Below are positions 4,012-9,912 of a DNA stretch of 64,000 bases, piece after piece. The position numbers and the translations under genes were made by a program. The stretch is from a virus (taxonomy: Duplodnaviria > Caudoviricetes): IMG/VR virus record IMGVR_UViG_3300036803_000075, positions 32,001-96,000 of that record; one strand, given 5' to 3'. Below the pieces are notes generated by a model that ran no database searches, had not been told where the DNA came from, and worked only from the letters and a program-made list of their open reading frames with translations. How positions within the stretch are numbered: the first letter of the stretch is position 1; each line of letters opens with the position of its first letter.

Positions 4012-4374
4012 TCATCCACCATGTTCCTGGAGCCAATGCCAGGTCGCCAGAGCCTCCTGTCGGAGTGTCCGAGCTGGATGTAGGACGACACCGCCGCCAC
4101 CATGACAAGTGCAGCGCCCTTCCAGATGATCTACCGACCCCACCGTCGAACGGATCAAGCACTCTTTGTGGGTATACCCGTGCTTGGGTGTCGGCTTACC
4201 ATCCTCATCCGTGGCGACGATCCCCATAGAGACGCCCGAGTCTTCCTCCCAGAACTGCTCCGCACACCACAGGCAAACCTCGCCCACCGGGACGGGGACT
4301 CGGTCATTCCACCGCAGATAGTTGTTGTCGTCGTAGCAGATACCGCTCGCCCACGGTTCGCCAAACCAAAGCAT
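4012..4374 (-). CDS. Hypothetical Cys/His-rich protein
   Basis: ORF with GAGG SD; CxxC...HxxC motifs. Confidence 0.6.
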   Translation of the reverse strand: MLWFGEPWASGICYDDNNYLRWNDRVPVPVGEVCLWCAEQFWEEDSGVSMGIVATDEDGKPTPKHGYTHKECLIRSTVGSVDHLEGRCTCHGGGGVVLHPARTLRQEALATWHWLQEHGG

Positions 4375-4390
4375 GATGCCCTCCTCAAAG

Positions 4391-4464
4391 AGCCGCCTGG
4401 AGGATTCGAACCCCCGACCAGCGCATTACGAGTGCGCTGCTCTACCAGGCTGAGCTAAGGCGGC
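4391..4464 (-). tRNA. tRNA-Thr(CGT)
   Basis: Reverse complement GCCGCCTTAGCTCAGCCTGGTAGAGCAGCGCACTCGTAATGCGCTGGTCGGGGGTTCGAATCCTCCAGGCGGCT folds as a canonical cloverleaf. Confidence 0.93.
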
Positions 4465-4533
4465 GAGTGATCCGACAGCGGTACGGGAATGGATATCGTC
4501 GGTTCTGTGGCCGCCGGATCAGTCCATAACAAA

Positions 4534-4563
4534 CACCTCGGAGACATCATTGTCTCCGAGGTG
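4534..4563 (-). terminator. Intrinsic terminator downstream of the Ro60 gene
   Basis: 13-bp inverted repeat CACCTCGGAGACA/TGTCTCCGAGGTG followed by TTTGTT on the minus strand. Confidence 0.65.
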
Positions 4564-4574
4564 CCTGGTTCCTG

Positions 4575-6170
4575 CTAGAACGGCCAGGTCGCAGACTGCC
4601 GAGCCTCCAGGAGGCCGATCATCTTGAACGTCTGGTCATTCATACCGCCAAACTCGTGGCGGTTGTCCTTGCCGGTTCCAACCTGGGTGTTGGCGTACCC
4701 ACCCAAGTTGAACCCATAGATCGGGATGTTCGCCGGCACCAGCGTGTCCGCCGGGTCGAGGGCAGAGCCTCCCCACGAGGAGCCGAAGGTCTGCATGTCG
4801 CTGATTACGACGACCCGCTGGTGTACGCCCCGCTTGAAGTGCGTCTTGAGTGCCCGGTGCATCTCCGTACCGTGACCGACCTCGCCGACCCGGTTGACGA
4901 ACCTCTCGACCTCCTTGAGCAGCGAACCGCCCTTGGGGATCTTGTGCGTGAACGTGCTGTTGGCGAAGCCGACCAGGTCCACGTCCTGACCCGCCTTGGC
5001 CAGCGCCACCCCGAAGATCGCCGCCGAGTGAACCGGCGAGACCTTGGAGCGCTCCGAGTACGTGCTGGTCATCGACGCCGAGGTGTCCACCAGGATCAGG
5101 GTCTTGCCGGACAGGGCCGGGATGTTCTGAACCGAGTGGGTCAGCGCCTCGTCCAGGGCCTGCCCCCACGCGAGGCTCGGAGCCGCCTGGTAAGCACTCC
5201 AAAACCGGTAGGGGAACTGCCGCGACCGAGCAACCTGCTCCGGATCGGAGAGACGCTCTGCGACGGCCTTACGAGCCGCCGGAGAGATCCCCGCCTCGTC
5301 GAAATTCCGAAGGTTCCGAAGCAGAGCCATGTAGCCCATCGACGGCGCGATTTTCTCCCAGACCTCAGCGTCCATCGGACCCTGGATCCAGCCCGAGATG
5401 GCCTCCCAGGTCATGCCAGCGTCCTTGAGCGTCTGCGGCGACATCTCCCGCAGTGCCTTCCGACGGTCAGCGACCGGAATCTCCTCCAGCTTGGTGCGCT
5501 GGAAGATCATCTTGAGCGAGTCCGGGACCTGGAGATCCGCCCGGTTGTGGCGCTTGTCGAGCAGGTACTTGTACAGGTCGGACTTCCAGGGCGCGACCGG
5601 CTGCGGGTGTACGAGGTCGATCACGTCGGCCATCCGGAAGGCCCGGGACTGGCCGTCGTACTTCATCGACGAGTACTCGTTGTAGACCTTGTCCACCGCG
5701 TCCGCGACACCGCGCTTGAGACCACCAGAGACCTTGTAGCCCATGGTCTGGGCGTACGCGAGGATCTCAGCCGGCTCATCCGCCCGAGACACCGCACTGG
5801 CGATGACACCCCGGGGCAGCGGGCCACCGGCCTTGGCGTACTCCACCGCAGCGACGATCGAGGCCGAACGCATGTTGGCCTCGTTGCGGAGCCAGGGGAT
5901 CAGCCGGCGGATCCAGTCCGGGTCTTCCTTGGTGACCTGGCGAACGAGATCCCGGAAGCGCCGGTCGCGGTCTCCGGCCTTCTCGTAAAACGAGTCTTCA
6001 CCCACCATGTTGACCACGGCGAGCATGAACAGGTCGGACTTAGCGTCCCGCGAATACGCGGTCGCGCCCTCATACGAGATGGCGTCCGCACCGGTTGCCT
6101 GCACCGGACTGGTGAGCGTCGCGGTCGCGCCGCGCGCCTTGGCCTTCGAGTCGAACTTACCCATGATCAT
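4575..6170 (-). CDS. Ro60/Rsr-like TROVE-domain RNA-binding protein with C-terminal vWA domain
   Basis: TROVE signatures (SFYE, RADEPAE, MADVIDLVHP, TWE, MGYMALLRNLRNF, SRQFPYRFWSAY); vWA MIDAS LILVDTSASM, GHGTE, VVISDMQ. Confidence 0.93.
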   Translation of the reverse strand: MIMGKFDSKAKARGATATLTSPVQATGADAISYEGATAYSRDAKSDLFMLAVVNMVGEDSFYEKAGDRDRRFRDLVRQVTKEDPDWIRRLIPWLRNEANMRSASIVAAVEYAKAGGPLPRGVIASAVSRADEPAEILAYAQTMGYKVSGGLKRGVADAVDKVYNEYSSMKYDGQSRAFRMADVIDLVHPQPVAPWKSDLYKYLLDKRHNRADLQVPDSLKMIFQRTKLEEIPVADRRKALREMSPQTLKDAGMTWEAISGWIQGPMDAEVWEKIAPSMGYMALLRNLRNFDEAGISPAARKAVAERLSDPEQVARSRQFPYRFWSAYQAAPSLAWGQALDEALTHSVQNIPALSGKTLILVDTSASMTSTYSERSKVSPVHSAAIFGVALAKAGQDVDLVGFANSTFTHKIPKGGSLLKEVERFVNRVGEVGHGTEMHRALKTHFKRGVHQRVVVISDMQTFGSSWGGSALDPADTLVPANIPIYGFNLGGYANTQVGTGKDNRHEFGGMNDQTFKMIGLLEARQSATWPF

Positions 6171-6177
6171 TTCTCCT

Positions 6178-6200
6178 TCCGAGAACAGAACCGCATCGGA
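6178..6200 (-). promoter_or_regulatory. Minimal Y-RNA-like stem abutting the Ro60 ribosome-binding site
   Basis: UCCGAUGCG-GUUCU-GUUCUCGGA has the same terminal motif as the Y-RNA-like elements and overlaps GGAAGGAG. Confidence 0.6.
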
Positions 6201-6265
6201 TAAAATGGAGCTGAAAGGGACGGTGCAATCCTGGGTATCGCAACACTAATGGTCCCTAAAGGTTC

Positions 6266-6336
6266 TGCCGAGAACCAAGCTGGCAATGGGGTTGGTTTCA
6301 TTAACAGTGAAGTACCCAGCGCCATACGCATCGACA
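6266..6336 (-). ncRNA. Y-RNA-like element 1 (short; carries an anticodon-like stem-loop)
   Basis: Terminal stem UGUCGAUGCG...GUUCUCGGCA, GGUACUUC motif, UUCA-CUGUUAA-UGAA hairpin. Confidence 0.7.
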
Positions 6337-6342
6337 AAACAG

Positions 6343-6492
6343 AGCCCCAGATGAGGGTTGAACTCACCTCTAAGGCACACCTAGCGGCGCCGACGTAGGG
6401 CTACTACGCGCTACCTCTATCAACCAGTGTGCCCAGAGTCGCCCTTCGGAAGGTGGCTGATCAACCACCCGTATACCGACCGCGACCGAGGC
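6343..6492 (-). ncRNA. Candidate ~150-nt tRNA-like RNA with a long helical insertion
   Basis: Acceptor-like stem GCCUCGG/CUGGGGC, T-arm GUGAG-UUCAACC-CUCAU, internal helix CUCUGGGCACAC/GUGUGCCUUAGAG. Confidence 0.45.
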
Positions 6493-6498
6493 ATGGGG

Positions 6499-6629
6499 TC
6501 CGCTGAGGACAGGTGCTGCAGGAGATGCATTAGGCCGCTCTGCCACGACCAACCCCACAGGGCTGGCGGAGGGATTCGAACCCTCGATTCCTGTTGAAAG
6601 AAGTAACCCGCGTGCGACGCTTCAGCGGA
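6499..6629 (-). ncRNA. Y-RNA-like element 2 (YrlA-type tRNA mimic)
   Basis: UCCGCUGAAGCG...GGUUACUUC...T-arm GAGGGUUCGAAUCCCUC, loop-closed acceptor stem, D-arm UGGCAGAGCGGCCUAAUGC...GUCCUCAGCGGA. Confidence 0.85.
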
Positions 6630-6657
6630 AGCAAAACTATGGAGTTATCAAGTTGGA

Positions 6658-6789
6658 CGGAGCTGAGTACCAATCGAGAAAGGTAACGTAGCGTGCGGCC
6701 ATTACACTACAGACCGAAGTCCGCTGGGATTCGAACCCAGACTGCCCTTTTATCAGAAGGAAGTAACCCATCTCTGCGCTTCAGCACCG
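6658..6789 (-). ncRNA. Y-RNA-like element 3 (permuted tRNA mimic with a GAU anticodon-like loop)
   Basis: GCUGAAGCG...GGUUACUUC-CUU-CUGAUAA-AAGG, T-arm CUGGGUUCGAAUCCCAG, acceptor closed by UUCG, D-arm UAGUGUAAUGGCCGCAC...GUACUCAGC. Confidence 0.85.
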
Positions 6790-6811
6790 AAGCTATGGAG
6801 TTGTTGTGGTT

Positions 6812-6946
6812 GTCGCTGAGAACCAAGTCGATCTAGGACTTGAGCCTGCTGCTCTACCAATTGAGCTACACCCCGAAGGGTGACCGGACTTGAACCGGCA
6901 ACACGCAGATTAGGTTAGAAGTAACCCAGATCTCCGCATCAGCGAC
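6812..6946 (-). ncRNA. Y-RNA-like element 4 (YrlA-type tRNA mimic)
   Basis: GUCGCUGAUGCG...GGUUACUUC...GCCGGUUCAAGUCCGGU-CACCC-UUCG-GGGUG-UAGCUCAAUUGGUAGAGC...GUUCUCAGCGAC. Confidence 0.88.
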
Positions 6947-7013
6947 GAAGTCTTACTCCTGGCGACGAGTAACCCATGGGCATCGTTCATTACTTAGTCG
7001 CCAGGAAATTGGT

Positions 7014-7145
7014 GCTGCTGAGTACAGGTTGACCAGCGGTTGGACCCGGTGCACCGGAGGACCGGGTGGTGGGTATCTCGACCCACCCTTGCGTAAGAGC
7101 CCTGGGGCTCTGGTGAGAAGTAACCGATGACCGCGCTTCAGCAGC
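7014..7145 (-). ncRNA. Y-RNA-like element 5 (divergent internal domain)
   Basis: GCUGCUGAAGCG...GGUUACUUC...GUACUCAGCAGC terminal stem; several internal hairpins including a degenerate T-arm GUGGGUCGAGAUACCCAC. Confidence 0.75.
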
Positions 7146-7161
7146 GTTCATGCTTTGGGGT

Positions 7162-7300
7162 TGATGCCGAGAACCAAACGATGCAGGTACGTACGCGCGC
7201 TACCAATTGCGCCATCGCCCGAAGGAGCCGGGCGACCTGGACTCGAACCAGGAACCTCGTCATCCGATATGAAGTATCCCGCAAACACACATCGGCATCA
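7162..7300 (-). ncRNA. Y-RNA-like element 6 (YrlA-type tRNA mimic)
   Basis: UGAUGCCGAUGUG...GGAUACUUC...CCUGGUUCGAGUCCAGG, closed acceptor, D-arm UGGCGCAAUUGGUAGCGC...GUUCUCGGCAUCA. Confidence 0.85.
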
Positions 7301-7394
7301 CAATATGGAGTTGTGAAAGTGCTAGGAGGTGCAGCCGGGGGTCTAGCTGTCGACTCCGTGGAGTCCGTCGCCGGTCCCCCTGGCTGCGAGTGCA

Positions 7395-7423
7395 ACCCTG
7401 TCATCGCTTCAAACGGTTGTCAA
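7395..7423 (-). promoter_or_regulatory. Sigma70-type promoter for the Y-RNA/Ro60 operon
   Basis: TTGACA-17 nt-CAGGGT with a TG extension, pointing into the Y-RNA array. Confidence 0.55.
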
Positions 7424-7710
7424 CCCGTTTTGGCATCCGGGATTAAAAAATCTTGGTGGAGGACATCCTTCATCAGCTCGTCTATGGCCGCGACCACCAG
7501 ATCCTGCGAGTCAGCCACATGGACCACCTCCAGTTCCACCTTGGCATCGGACCGCGCCGGACCCAGGGTAATCCCCAGATCGATCTGCCGGAGGAACTGG
7601 TGTCCCTCGCACAGGTCGTACGCCCGATCCATCAGCTCGTCCGCCTGCTCTTCGGTGAGGCCAGCGGGCTCCAGATACGTCAGCACCATGAATTTCAGCT
7701 CTTCGTCCAC
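7420..7710 (-). CDS. Hypothetical acidic protein
   Basis: 96-aa ORF with protein-like composition between the tRNA-Leu and the Y-RNA promoter. Confidence 0.6.
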   Translation of the reverse strand: MDEELKFMVLTYLEPAGLTEEQADELMDRAYDLCEGHQFLRQIDLGITLGPARSDAKVELEVVHVADSQDLVVAAIDELMKDVLHQDFLIPDAKTG

Positions 7711-7711
7711 G

Positions 7712-7785
7712 TGCTCCCGACAGGAGTCGAACCTGCAAACAACTGGGCTTGAGCCAGCCGGCTATGCCATTTCGCCTACGGAAGC
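7712..7785 (-). tRNA. tRNA-Leu(CAA), short variable loop
   Basis: GCTTCCG-TAGGCGAAATGGCATAGCCG-GCTGG-CTCAAGC-CCAGT-TGTT-T-GCAGGTTCGACTCCTGT-CGGGAGC-A. Confidence 0.8.
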
Positions 7786-7835
7786 GAGAGACGCGATGGG
7801 TTATTGGGTATCGCAGGCCGTCTGGCATCTCTCTG

Positions 7836-7909
7836 TAGCGGGGGCCAGATTTGAACTGGCGACCTACGGGTTATGAGCCCGCCGAGCTACCAAACTGCTC
7901 CACCCCGCC
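7836..7909 (-). tRNA. tRNA-Met(CAT), initiator-like
   Basis: GGCGGGGTGGAGCAGTTTGGTAGCTCGGCGGGCTCATAACCCG...; three consecutive G-C pairs in the anticodon stem, typical of tRNA-fMet. Confidence 0.92.
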
Positions 7910-8003
7910 AAGACCTGGCCCCGCCGAACGAGTACCAGGTGGTACGCGCCGGTTGCCTAAGCCGGCGGTTTGTGACTAGGTCACAGGCTGACTGACGATA
8001 CCA

Positions 8004-8417
8004 CTAGGCGGTCGGAGCCGCCGGGGTGTTCGCGGTGACCGCGTCAGCGACCCGCTGCTTCTCAGCGTTGATCGTGTCGATGACAGCCTGAATCTTGGCC
8101 GGGTCGGTCTGGGCCGCAGCGAGCTGGGCCGCGATGTTGTCCAGGAGCGTGATGATCGACTCGTCCACGGTGGACGCGTCGGCTACCGCCTGGGTGAGGT
8201 CGTCGAGAGTCGCCATTTCGGCAGTTTCCTTTCGGTCTACATTGGCCAGCAGTTCGTAAATGATCCGCTGGTTGTACAGGATCGCGCCCTGACCCTGGGC
8301 AATCGCCACGACCCAGTCGTACAGGTCGTTGTACGGGTGAGGGCGTCGGTGGAGATTCAGCAGCTCTTGGGGCTGCCTCAGGGGATCGGTCACGGAGTCA
8401 GTGTAGGCCCGAGCCAC
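8004..8417 (-). CDS. Hypothetical helical/coiled-coil protein (an internal start at MATLDD is possible)
   Basis: ORF track; amphipathic Ala/Asp-rich C-terminal half. Confidence 0.65.
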   Translation of the reverse strand: MARAYTDSVTDPLRQPQELLNLHRRPHPYNDLYDWVVAIAQGQGAILYNQRIIYELLANVDRKETAEMATLDDLTQAVADASTVDESIITLLDNIAAQLAAAQTDPAKIQAVIDTINAEKQRVADAVTANTPAAPTA

Positions 8418-9269: not shown

Positions 9270-9436
9270 CAGCGGTACCAACGGCCGCCGCCGCCACTGG
9301 ACCGCACGAAGAACCCGACCAGCCAGATCACCAGCACGACCACCGCGATGATCCAGAGGAAGTGCAGGGCTGAGCCCAGGAAGCCGCCCCCGAAGAGCAG
9401 CACGATCACCAGCAGTACTACCAGGAGAGCAATCAT
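9266..9436 (-). CDS. Small hydrophobic membrane protein (56 aa, MIALLVVLLVIVLLFGGGF...GRWYRW)
   Basis: Hand translation; translationally coupled at both ends (ATGA/GTGA overlaps). Confidence 0.7.
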   Translation of the reverse strand: MIALLVVLLVIVLLFGGGFLGSALHFLWIIAVVVLVIWLVGFFVRSSGGGGRWYRW

Positions 9437-9912
9437 GTCCGCAGAGTACCCACATTTTGGCCGATGGCGCGGTCTTCTTCAATCTCACTCCAGAAGTCGT
9501 CCCAGAACGGCTGCTGTGTAGCTAACCAGCTCGGCGGAAACATCACCGTCCGCAGCGGAACGACTGCGCCCCACTCCTTGATATTCACCCATTCCCACCC
9601 TGAGCAGCGATGAGGCTCTCGATTGACCGGATCAAGGTCACCTGGGCGGGCGCTGACATAGAAGTGAACGTAGTGGTCATGGCCATAGAGGCCGGGGTCG
9701 TTGACAACACCTCGAACTCGCACGTCAGTGAGCAGCAGCCCGCACTCTTCCTCAGCCTCCCTGAGGGCGGTCTCCTGGATGGTCTCTCCATATTCCACAT
9801 GGCCGCCCGGAGCTGCCCAGAGACCGTCTCCGACACCCTTACGCCTGCCCAGGAGTACCTTCCCCTCCCGGTAGATCCAGATGCCTACTCCTACCCGGAT
9901 GTGTCTCTCCAT
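9433..9912 (-). CDS. Nudix hydrolase
   Basis: Nudix box GGHVEYGETIQETALREAEEECG; NREPHRCSGWEW tail. Confidence 0.92.
   Translation of the reverse strand: MERHIRVGVGIWIYREGKVLLGRRKGVGDGLWAAPGGHVEYGETIQETALREAEEECGLLLTDVRVRGVVNDPGLYGHDHYVHFYVSARPGDLDPVNREPHRCSGWEWVNIKEWGAVVPLRTVMFPPSWLATQQPFWDDFWSEIEEDRAIGQNVGTLRT

What the first reader, a model, noticed from the sequence alone, without database searches (positions are those of the whole stretch)
4575..7423. Phage Ro60 with a tandem array of six diverse Y-RNA-like elements
Seen: six minus-strand elements (6266-6336, 6499-6629, 6658-6789, 6812-6946, 7014-7145, 7162-7300) share a terminal stem of the form GYYGA(A/U)GYG...GU(U/A/C)CUCRGC and an internal GG(UU)ACUUC motif but carry different cargo domains. 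Four show T-arm, loop-closed acceptor stem and D-arm in permuted order. Established: bacterial Ro60 binds Y RNAs encoded next to it, and YrlA-class RNAs are tRNA mimics with this permuted order; usually only one or two are described per locus. Inference: a modular set of tethers or decoys giving one Ro60 ring several specificities, for example to counter tRNA-targeting defences.
Basis: partly seen in the sequence, partly recalled or inferred. Interest (0 to 1): 0.85.

Follow-up and report, generated by a model that had tools for sequence, protein, structure and literature searches.

The report
Phage Ro60 gene with six Y-RNAs
An uncultured soil phage carries a Ro60 RNA-binding protein gene preceded by six small RNA genes that share one Ro60-docking "handle" but carry different interiors, several of them sealed tRNA look-alikes; such four- to seven-member arrays turn out to be common beside phage Ro60 genes, although the papers I could search describe only about two per locus.

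Summary
The ORF at 4575-6170(-) encodes a Ro60 protein with TROVE and vWA domains.

**Shared handle.** All six have a covarying terminal stem, a 5' GNYGA(A/U)G(C/U)G motif, an internal GG(K)(W)ACUUC motif and a 3' UG(K)U(N)CUC(R)GC motif. Everything else differs.

**Model test.** I built a covariance model from one window element plus 11 from other genomes. It finds all six, and nothing else in the 64 kb with default filters. With filters off it also finds a cargo-less mini-handle lying over the Ro60 ribosome-binding site.

**Wider survey.** In 170 other Ro60 loci all 328 hits lie on the Ro60 strand.
- Actinobacterial loci hold up to 4 hits.
- Phage loci hold up to 7, including cultured Streptomyces and Arthrobacter phages.

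**Cargo.** Three elements carry clear YrlA-type permuted tRNA domains and a fourth carries a weaker one. All score below Rfam's YrlA cut-off. Two carry an anticodon-arm look-alike with a CUNNNAA loop, a signature about 100-fold enriched at this position across loci.

**Reading.** This is an expanded, modular Y-RNA set for one phage Ro60. Expression and binding are untested, and the anti-defence idea remains speculation. Earlier notes of this scan describe similar arrays beside Ro60-like genes in other phages.

The parts
4575..6170 (-). Ro60 (TROVE + vWA) gene, 531 aa. The true start is probably the second ATG at 6164.
   Evidence: Pfam TROVE E 3.6e-17 and VWA_2 E 9e-7. PDB phiLo Ro60 9KOP/9L5Y at E 7.5e-35. 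38-57% identity to Ro60 of actinophages and Actinobacteria. The DxSxS...T...D MIDAS residues are invariant, and M3 is the conserved start in the alignment.
4528..4563 (-). Terminator-like hairpin just after the Ro60 stop: 12-bp G+C-rich stem, 6-nt loop, then UUUGUU
   Evidence: Read directly from the sequence. It falls below the T-run threshold of the consensus scan.
6174..6204 (-). Cargo-less mini-handle. It keeps the terminal stem, the 5' CCGAUGCG motif and the 3' UGUUCUCGG motif. Its 3' arm is the Ro60 Shine-Dalgarno GGAAGGAG. Candidate Ro60 operator.
   Evidence: R1 with filters off: 20.6 bits, E 7.6e-5, full model ends with the inner 44 positions deleted. Not found in 13 other array-bearing phage loci or by a motif scan that was too strict to recover the window's own copy.
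6262..6340 (-). Y-like element 1 (short). Handle plus a single hairpin UUCA-CUGUUAA-UGAA, an anticodon-arm look-alike.
   Evidence: R1 56.3 bits; this element is in the model seed. Fold. Loop signature.
6343..6492 (-). 150-nt structured RNA with a 7-bp acceptor-like stem with free ends and a canonical T arm, but no handle. It lies 5 nt after element 2 and 2 nt before element 1. Probable tRNA-like processing punctuation.
   Evidence: Fold -67.6 kcal/mol, z -2.4. The acceptor and T arm were read from the sequence. Not called by ARAGORN or Rfam. No relatives found.
6498..6630 (-). Y-like element 2. Handle, T arm, 8-bp sealed acceptor-like stem and a divergent D-like arm.
   Evidence: R1 24.3 bits, E 8e-6 with filters off. 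Rfam YrlA only 11.8 bits, E 1.4. Fold.
6658..6789 (-). Y-like element 3. After the handle comes a complete permuted cloverleaf: 5-bp stem with CUGAUAA loop, 4-nt linker, T arm, sealed 5-bp acceptor (UUCG), UA, D arm.
   Evidence: R1 45.2 bits. Rfam YrlA 19.5 bits, E 0.008. Geometry read from the sequence.
6811..6947 (-). Y-like element 4, the best YrlA-type tRNA mimic: T arm, sealed acceptor (UUCG), UA, D arm GCUCAAUUGGUAGAGC.
   Evidence: R1 35.2 bits. Rfam YrlA 41.4 bits, E 2e-7, model positions 23-85. Fold z -4.26.
6957..7006 (-). Hairpin with an 11-bp stem ending CGA/UCG and an interior GGGUUACUC, but lacking the GAWGYG and UGGUUC motifs. Probably a decayed or truncated handle copy.
   Evidence: Fold z -4.14. 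R1 gives only 9-10 bits on both strands.
7013..7146 (-). Y-like element 5. Handle plus three hairpins that are not tRNA-like; the middle one is at most a degenerate T arm.
   Evidence: R1 22.4 bits. Fold z -3.32. No Rfam YrlA match.
7162..7300 (-). Y-like element 6. Handle, T arm, 7-bp sealed acceptor-like stem and D arm.
   Evidence: R1 32.9 bits. Rfam YrlA 28.8 bits, E 9e-4.
6638..6645 (-). Spacer motif (A)ACUCCAUA, 5-9 nt before elements 2, 3 and 6. Other copies are at 6794-6801 and 7304-7311, and a variant AGCUCCAUU lies before the mini-handle. Its role is unknown: processing signal, -10-like box or duplication scar.
   Evidence: 4 matches in the window against 0.65 expected, 3 of them here. 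Not a genome-wide motif.
7711..7909 (-). tRNA-Leu(CAA) and tRNA-Met(CAU) upstream on the same strand. tRNA-Thr(CGU) lies at 4390-4464 downstream. The Ro60/Y array therefore sits inside a tRNA cluster.
   Evidence: ARAGORN and Rfam tRNA.

Best explanation
The locus encodes a phage Ro60 ribonucleoprotein system. It consists of one Ro60 ring protein and six different Y RNAs, read from the same strand as the gene and the neighbouring tRNAs.

**Handle.** Each RNA is closed by pairing of its 5' and 3' ends. Next to that stem it carries the conserved handle: 5' GNYGA(A/U)G(C/U)G opposite 3' UG(K)U(N)CUC. This is the actinobacterial and actinophage version of the GNCGAAN0-1G Ro60-binding motif of YrlA. 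A second stem follows and ends in GG(K)U, and then single-stranded UACUUC (YrlA's YUAY). I infer that Ro60 docks on this handle.

**Cargo.** The variable interior is the effector module.
- Three, arguably four, are sealed, non-chargeable, circularly permuted tRNA mimics of YrlA type.
- One is only an anticodon-arm look-alike.
- One is a non-tRNA three-hairpin domain.

**Proposed action.** Different cargos would tether or gate the same Ro60 ring towards different host partners, such as PNPase or other tRNA-binding enzymes.

**Maturation.** The RNAs are most likely cut out of a polycistronic transcript together with tRNAs and a tRNA-like spacer.

**Autoregulation.** A cargo-less copy of the handle over the Ro60 ribosome-binding site would let free Ro60 repress its own translation.

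**Shown versus inferred.** Shown: the gene, the six elements, the conserved handle, covariation, the exclusive association with Ro60 loci, and the tRNA-like domains. Inferred: transcription, processing, Ro60 binding, partner recruitment and autoregulation.
For: Protein and elements:
- Ro60 identity of the ORF.
- Six elements with 21 invariant handle columns and otherwise unrelated interiors.
- Terminal stems of different sequence but conserved pairing.

Model R1 was built from element 1 plus 11 elements of other genomes. RNAalifold finds compensatory changes at 12 of its 14 pairs.
- It finds the five window elements that were not in its seed, at full model length.
- It finds nothing else in the 64 kb on either strand with default filters.
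- In 90 viral and 80 actinobacterial Ro60 loci (1.23 Mb, both strands), all 192 + 136 hits are on the Ro60 strand and almost all lie just upstream of the gene.
- In three whole 8-9 Mb genomes, every hit at E <= 0.01 lies in the Ro60 locus.

On 86 aligned hits, 89% of cells pair against 57% in shuffles. The covariation score is 0.82, against 0.21 in shuffles and at most 0.15 when partners are slid.

The handle motifs correspond to the GNCGAAN0-1G and YUAY features of Rsr-bound YrlA RNAs (PMC4201824).

The Rfam YrlA tRNA-like core matches elements 4 and 6 (E 2e-7, 9e-4) and element 3 (E 0.008).

Precedents:
- Y RNAs processed from one precursor together with tRNA, in D. radiodurans and M. smegmatis.
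- A phage Ro60 that binds two upstream Y-like RNAs and host PNPase, in Thermus phage phiLo (PMC12135203).

In Arthrobacter phage Atuin, six R1 hits sit 1-3 nt from annotated tRNAs.
Against: - There are no expression or binding data. The only sequencing run that holds this DNA is a soil metagenome DNA run.
- None of the six reaches Rfam's YrlA gathering score (best 41.4 bits against 69). The 5' motif departs from the published GNCGAA at one or two positions in every copy.
- No sigma-70-type promoter was found.
- No close relative of this phage is available, so the individual cargos, the mini-handle and the spacer RNA cannot be tested for conservation.
- The covariation alignment A4 was fitted to the model, which inflates pairing somewhat.
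- Elements 2 and 5 score low with R1 (22-24 bits).
Confidence: 0.8

Rival explanations
1. Only some of the six are working Y RNAs. The rest are recent tandem duplicates that are drifting and have no distinct function, so the 'panel of specificities' is an illusion of duplication and decay.
For: - A decayed handle-like hairpin lies inside the array at 6957-7006.
- Elements 2 and 5 score lowest with R1.
- Element 5's middle hairpin looks like a degenerate T arm.
- The repeated spacer motif ACUCCAUA suggests duplication history.
Against: - All six keep every invariant handle position and an intact 8-10 bp terminal stem, while their interiors are unalignable. That is not what neutral decay of recent duplicates gives.
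- Arrays of 4-7 with the same mix of short and long elements recur in many phages whose Ro60 is only 40-54% identical.
Confidence: 0.1
2. The shared handle is not a Ro60 site. It would instead be a processing or stability signal, or the binding site of another protein, for a family of phage tRNA-like RNAs that merely sit in the tRNA cluster next to Ro60.
For: - Ro60 binding is not shown here.
- The elements lie among tRNA genes.
- The handle's 5' motif differs from the published GNCGAA consensus.
Against: - The handle is found only beside Ro60 genes and on their strand. This holds in 170 loci and in three whole genomes, in bacteria as well as phages and with or without neighbouring tRNAs.
- Its motifs and position match those of the Rsr-bound YrlA and YrlB RNAs of M. 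smegmatis and S. Typhimurium (PMC4201824).
Confidence: 0.07
3. The repeats act at the DNA level, as protein-binding or recombination sites, or are chance matches, and are not RNA genes.
For: None beyond the lack of RNA data.
Against: - Compensatory base changes keep the stems paired across 86 sequences.
- The strand bias is absolute.
- T, D and acceptor-like arms are present.
- The motif count is far above the shuffle expectation.
Confidence: 0.01

Closest known systems
YrlA and YrlB, the Y RNAs bound by bacterial Ro60 (Rsr) in M. smegmatis, S. Typhimurium and mycobacteriophages (Chen et al. 2014, PMC4201824; Wang et al. 2018, 10.1101/312249; Rfam RF02553)
   Same: - Encoded next to Ro60 on the same strand.
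- A terminal stem formed by the two RNA ends.
- A GNCGAA-type motif on the 5' strand, and YUAY opening the interior.
- An interior that in some members is a tRNA mimic in the order T arm, sealed acceptor, D arm (YrlA), and in others a short hairpin (YrlB-like).
- More than one Y RNA per locus, probably processed from one precursor.
   Different: - Six members plus a cargo-less copy, instead of the two characterised per species.
- None reaches the Rfam gathering score.
- The 5' motif is GNYGA(A/U)G.
- A conserved 3' UG(K)U(N)CUC strand and GG(K)UACUUC are prominent.
- One cargo is only an anticodon-arm look-alike, and one is a non-tRNA three-hairpin domain.
- The hairpin that the literature calls a variable arm has anticodon-arm geometry here.
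Thermus phage phiLo Ro60 with Yrl1 and Yrl2 (NAR 2025, PMC12135203; PDB 9KOP, 9L5Y)
   Same: - A phage-encoded Ro60 homologous to this one (E 7.5e-35).
- Y-like RNAs upstream of the gene, identified by a CGAA-type motif within a stem formed by the 5' and 3' ends.
- Binding to the phage Ro60 and to host PNPase shown in vitro.
   Different: - Two RNAs, not six.
- The paper's text does not use the name YrlA (0 occurrences), and the passages I read describe no tRNA-like cargo.
- A different host phylum.
- No operator-like copy at the ribosome-binding site is described.
D. radiodurans Yrn1/Yrn2 and metazoan Y RNAs
   Same: - Modular design: a Ro60-binding stem plus an effector module that tethers Ro60 to a partner (PNPase, ZBP1).
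- Several different Y RNAs per organism, up to four.
- Yrn2 is co-transcribed with a tRNA.
   Different: - A different handle sequence, with both strands of the metazoan-type helix conserved there.
- A different order of tRNA-like parts.

Membership tests
YrlA (Rfam RF02553) | Reaches the family's curated gathering score (69 bits) over the whole model | tested here: not met
   No match at gathering threshold. The best partial matches are 41.4, 28.8, 19.5 and 11.8 bits and cover only the tRNA-like core, model positions 23-86. The related phage loci also have none at gathering threshold.
YrlA (Rfam RF02553) | Encoded within 4 kb of a Ro60 ortholog, on the same strand (Chen 2014) | tested here: met
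   All six lie 92-1130 nt upstream of the Ro60 start on the minus strand.
YrlA (Rfam RF02553) | tRNA-like domain in the order (V) - T arm - loop-closed acceptor stem - D arm | tested here: met
   Met for elements 4, 6 and 3 (alignments; arms read from the sequence). Element 2 has a T arm and sealed acceptor but a divergent D arm. Elements 1 and 5 lack the domain, so at most four of six are YrlA-like.
YrlA (Rfam RF02553) | 5' GNCGAAN0-1G motif in the terminal stem, and YUAY at the start of the interior | tested here: inconclusive
   Variants are present in all six. The 5' motif reads GCUGAAG, GCUGAUG, GUCGAUG or GCCGAUG, one or two departures from GNCGAA. The interior motif reads UUAC in four, GUAC in one and AUAC in one.
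Y RNA in the functional sense (Ro60-bound small RNA) | Terminal stem formed by pairing of the 5' and 3' ends, supported by covariation | tested here: met
   8-10 bp stems in all six. 12 of 14 pairs show compensatory changes. 89% paired against 57% in shuffles on 86 sequences.
Y RNA in the functional sense (Ro60-bound small RNA) | Accumulates as a discrete small RNA and is bound by Ro60 | not testable with these tools
   No RNA run holds this DNA. Binding needs experiments.
Ro60 / TROVE protein | TROVE (HEAT-repeat ring) domain followed by a vWA domain with a MIDAS motif | tested here: met
   Pfam TROVE 63 bits and VWA_2 30 bits. D362, S364, S366, T435 and D458 are invariant in 11 phage Ro60s. 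Homology to the solved phiLo Ro60.
tRNA (RF00005) | Standard cloverleaf with free acceptor ends, found by tRNA finders | tested here: not met
   ARAGORN calls none of the six. The only Rfam tRNA match below threshold is an artefact joining the D arm of element 4 to the T arm of element 3 (24.1 bits).

The most novel reading that the evidence does not exclude
Phages of Actinobacteria have expanded the Ro60/Y-RNA system into panels of four to seven RNAs. Their cargos are sealed, non-chargeable copies of whole tRNAs or of bare anticodon arms, with a CUNNNAA loop and varied 'anticodons'. Displayed on a Ro60 ring, these would act as decoys, sensors or recruiting baits for host enzymes that recognise tRNA anticodon arms or elbows, such as anticodon nucleases of toxin-antitoxin and defence systems, modification enzymes, RNase P/Z or PNPase. 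A cargo-less handle over the ribosome-binding site would let Ro60 set its own level.
Probability: 0.2. Interest if true: 0.8.

Novelty: new variant of a known kind. Interest (0 to 1): 0.55.

Why it matters
Ro60 and Y RNAs are conserved from bacteria to humans, yet the partners and purpose of the bacterial and phage versions remain largely unknown.

- **Natural panels.** Phages carry four to seven Y RNAs with one handle and different cargos. This offers a natural experiment: each cargo should pull down its own partner.
- **Tractable systems.** The same design is present in cultured phages: Streptomyces phages BRock, GiJojo, Alone3 and pSt2308, and Arthrobacter phage Atuin.
- **Structural reading.** The anticodon-arm signature suggests that many YrlA-type RNAs are whole permuted tRNAs rather than tRNAs with a long variable arm. 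That changes which host enzymes one would test.
- **Annotation.** Several 'tRNA' genes annotated upstream of Ro60 in actinophage genomes are really parts of these RNAs.

Tried and rejected
- **Close relatives.** Megablast of the locus against 50,697 phage records found no match. There is therefore no close relative, and no conservation test for individual cargos, the mini-handle, the 150-nt spacer RNA, the 6957-7006 hairpin or the leader. blastn-short against 170 loci returned only T- and D-arm words.
- **RNA data.** No RNA holder is listed; the single run that holds the DNA is a soil metagenome DNA run, possibly the source sample.
- **Rfam.** At gathering threshold on the window and on 12 related loci, only tRNAs were found.
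- **Promoters and terminators.** The sigma-70 and terminator consensus scan of 4300-8100 found no promoter and no minus-strand terminator.
- **RNA-repair context.** No RtcB or RNA ligase family is found in the 107.7-kb record, which is 73% complete. Neighbouring ORFs give only NUDIX, helicases and an endolysin.
- **Mini-handles elsewhere.** A motif scan found none before other Ro60 starts, but it was too strict even to recover the window's own copy. R1 with filters off on 13 array-bearing loci also found none.
- **First element finder.** A loose pattern-plus-stem finder gave many opposite-strand false hits and was replaced by the covariance model.
- **Papers not held.** The reviews PMC10870794 and PMC6047535, and the supplementary tables of Chen 2014, could not be read. 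How many YrlA copies per phage were already tabulated there is therefore unknown to me.
- **Rejected readings.**
  - ACUCCAUA as a genome-wide promoter box, since it is local to this array.
  - The six elements as ordinary or split tRNA genes.


Full report
**Setting.** The window is bases 32001-96000 of a 107.7-kb IMG/VR virus record, estimated 73% complete, assembled from a soil metagenome. It is a tailed phage: endolysin, tail and virion proteins, and helicases. Its closest Ro60 relatives are in phages of Streptomyces, Arthrobacter and Gordonia (38-47% identity) and in Actinobacteria (up to 57%). No near-identical phage record exists.

**The protein.** ORF 4575-6170(-) is a Ro60.
- It matches Pfam TROVE (E 3.6e-17) and vWA.
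- It is homologous to the solved Ro60 of Thermus phage phiLo (E 7.5e-35).
- The MIDAS residues are invariant in an alignment of 11 phage Ro60s.
- That alignment and the spacing from the GGAGG box suggest the real start is the ATG at 6164.
- A 12-bp hairpin followed by UUUGUU comes directly after the stop codon.

**The observation.** Aligned to each other they share 21 invariant columns and nothing else. These columns lie in three blocks:
- G..GA.G.G at the 5' end;
- GG.UACUUC about ten bases later;
- UG.U.CUC.GC at the 3' end.

Each element is closed by an 8-10 bp stem of its own sequence. Inside the array the third stem position covaries: U-A in four copies and C-G in two. GGKWACTTC occurs seven times in the 64 kb against about one expected, and five of those are here. 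Beyond the terminal stem comes a small internal loop made of the conserved motifs. A second, variable stem then ends in GG(K)U, and UACUUC opens the interior.

**An independent test.** I built covariance model R1 from element 1 plus 11 short elements taken from nine other Ro60 loci, both phage and bacterial. RNAalifold found compensatory changes at 12 of its 14 pairs.
- With default filters R1 finds five window elements at full model length, four of them not in the seed. It finds nothing else in the 64 kb on either strand.
- With filters off it finds all six, at 56 to 22 bits.
- Over 90 viral and 80 actinobacterial Ro60 loci (1.23 Mb, both strands) it gives 192 and 136 hits. Every hit is on the Ro60 strand, and nearly all lie in the few hundred bases before the gene.
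- In three whole 8-9 Mb genomes, all hits at E <= 0.01 fall in the Ro60 locus. Only 150 first-look candidates per genome were scored.
- On 86 aligned hits, 89% of cells pair against 57% in shuffles. The covariation score is 0.82, against 0.21 in shuffles and at most 0.15 when partners are slid. The alignment was fitted to the model, which flatters it somewhat.

The handle is therefore a real, structured RNA module tied specifically to Ro60 genes.

**What the handle is.** Chen et al. 2014 (PMC4201824) defined two features for YrlA RNAs, which are bound by Rsr in M. smegmatis and S. Typhimurium. One is a 5' GNCGAAN0-1G motif regarded as the Ro60 contact. The other is a conserved YUAY that opens the interior. 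The window's GNYGA(A/U)G and (K)UAC are the local versions of these. The model consensus, CGAaGCG ... GGuUACUUC ... UUGUUCUCG, shows that this is the general actinobacterial and actinophage form. Binding by Ro60 is thus a strong inference from homology and exclusive linkage. It is not shown here.

**The cargos.**
- Rfam's YrlA model matches only the tRNA-like core (model positions 23-86). It scores 41.4 bits for element 4 and 28.8 for element 6. It scores 19.5 for element 3 and 11.8 (not significant) for element 2. All are below the 69-bit gathering score, so I do not file them as RF02553 members.
- Read by eye, elements 3, 4 and 6 have a canonical T arm, an acceptor-like stem sealed by a loop, a two-base linker (UA, or UG in element 6) and a D arm. 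Element 2 has the T arm and an 8-bp sealed stem, but its D arm is aberrant.
- Element 5 carries three hairpins that are not tRNA-like.
- Element 1 carries a single hairpin.
- Elements 2 and 6 have sealed stems of 7-8 bp. That is the length that made M. smegmatis YrlA an RNase P substrate. This is a lead only.

**Anticodon-arm look-alikes.** This is a pattern beyond the original finding. The hairpin that follows UACUUC reads UUCA-CUGUUAA-UGAA in element 1 and UCCUU-CUGAUAA-AAGGG in element 3.
- Across 402 distinct handle-bearing elements from all loci, the first hairpin most often has a 7-nt loop. Of the 94 such loops that are not T-loops, 47 read CUNNNAA with a variable middle triplet.
- Elsewhere in the same loci only 0.5% of 7-nt-loop hairpins read CUNNNAA.
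- The stems are mostly 5 bp. Where a T arm follows, the linker is 4-5 nt in 25 of 31 cases.
- This is the geometry of an anticodon arm plus a class I variable loop.
- Chen 2014 and Wang 2018 treat this hairpin as a long variable arm. My counts suggest that many of these RNAs are whole tRNAs, permuted at the D/anticodon junction and sealed at the acceptor end.
- The M. smegmatis YrlA 5' probe printed in Chen 2014 contains CUUCUAA at the matching place.
- This rests on sequence statistics over related sequences. It needs a structure or chemical probing.

**How unusual is six?** In the literature I could read, two Y RNAs per characterised species is the norm. The phiLo phage has two. In the sequences, however:
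- With default filters the 90 viral loci hold 0 to 7 hits: 0 in 6 loci, 1 in 20, 2 in 36, 3 in 19, 4 in 6, 6 in 2 and 7 in 1.
- Actinobacterial loci hold at most 4.
- With filters off, 13 array-bearing phage loci hold 4-7. These include the cultured phages pSt2308 (5), BRock (4) and Atuin (6, on both sides of Ro60 and 1-3 nt from tRNAs).
- These arrays also mix short and long, tRNA-like and other cargos.

The window's array is therefore a large example of a common, phage-enriched pattern. I did not find that pattern described. Earlier notes of this scan report similar handle-sharing arrays beside Ro60-like genes in unrelated phages.

**Extra parts of the locus.**
- *Mini-handle.* A 31-nt element at 6174-6204 keeps the terminal stem and both loop motifs but has no second stem or cargo. 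Its 3' arm is the Shine-Dalgarno sequence of Ro60 (R1 20.6 bits, E 7.6e-5). It looks like an operator for translational autorepression by Ro60. It is unique to this phage among the loci examined, so it remains a hypothesis.
- *tRNA-like spacer.* A 150-nt RNA lies between elements 2 and 1, a few bases from each. It has a 7-bp acceptor stem with free ends and a canonical T arm, but otherwise no tRNA shape. With the tRNA genes on both flanks, this fits release of the Y RNAs by the host's tRNA-end processing enzymes. Yrn2/tRNA-Asp/Yrn1 in D. radiodurans is a documented case.
- *Decayed copy.* The hairpin at 6957-7006 looks like a decayed handle.
- *Spacer motif.* ACUCCAUA precedes elements 2, 3 and 6 and is unexplained.

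**Mechanism and limits.**
- *Most likely:* one Ro60 ring and six alternative RNA adaptors. Each docks by the same handle and presents a different module to host factors.
- *Shown:* the anatomy, its conservation and its linkage to Ro60.
- *Not shown:* transcription, processing, binding and partners.
- *Anti-defence idea:* it has no contextual support, since no RNA-repair genes were found in the record. Its only hint is the anticodon-arm mimicry.

**Verdict.**
- The finding is real and is correctly read as a Y-RNA array.
- It is a new variant of a known kind, not a new kind.
- Its value lies in the breadth of the pattern and in the availability of cultured phages to test it.

Noticed in passing
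L008:2769-2843, L010:2777-2850, L017:2704-2775: Three tRNA genes annotated just upstream of Ro60 lie inside handle-bearing Y-like elements and are not found by the Rfam tRNA model. They are GiJojo tRNA-Arg(cct), Alone3 tRNA-Ser(gct) and VanLee tRNA-Arg(tct). They look like the tRNA-mimic cores of YrlA-type RNAs misannotated as tRNAs.
   Followed up: partly
All Ro60 loci L007-L176; window 6262-6340 and 6658-6789: The first hairpin after UACUUC very often has anticodon-arm geometry: a 5-bp stem, a 7-nt loop CUNNNAA with a variable triplet, and 4-5 nt to the T arm. 47 of 94 loops fit, against 0.5% of 7-nt-loop hairpins elsewhere. This suggests whole permuted tRNAs rather than a 'long variable arm'.
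   Followed up: yes
window 6343-6492 (-): A 150-nt structured RNA with a 7-bp acceptor stem, free ends and a canonical T arm, but no D or anticodon arms and no handle. It is wedged between two Y elements.
   Followed up: partly
L043, L044, L047, L056, L068, L159, about 1000 nt into the Ro60 ORF: A handle-like sequence, CCGAUGCG directly followed by GUUCUACUCGG, recurs inside the Ro60 coding sequence at the conserved P-M-R-F-Y-S motif. It may simply reflect coding constraint, or it may be an internal Ro60 site on the protein's own mRNA.
   Followed up: no
L015 (Arthrobacter phage Atuin) 2448-2867 and 4750-5334: Six Y-like elements lie on both sides of Ro60, packed 1-3 nt from annotated tRNA genes. 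This is a cultured system in which co-processing of Y RNAs and tRNAs could be tested.
   Followed up: partly
window 7330-7387 (-): A long G+C-rich hairpin in the leader between ORF 7420-7710 and element 6. Fold -41.9 kcal/mol, z -2.5 for 7301-7423. There is no U tail and its role is unknown.
   Followed up: no
window 6162-6170 (-): The Ro60 ORF has two in-frame ATGs, at 6170 and 6164. Homologues and the spacing from GGAGG favour 6164 as the start.
   Followed up: partly
window 9433-9912 (-): A NUDIX hydrolase gene lies about 3 kb upstream of the array. No RtcB or RNA ligase was found anywhere in the record.
   Followed up: partly
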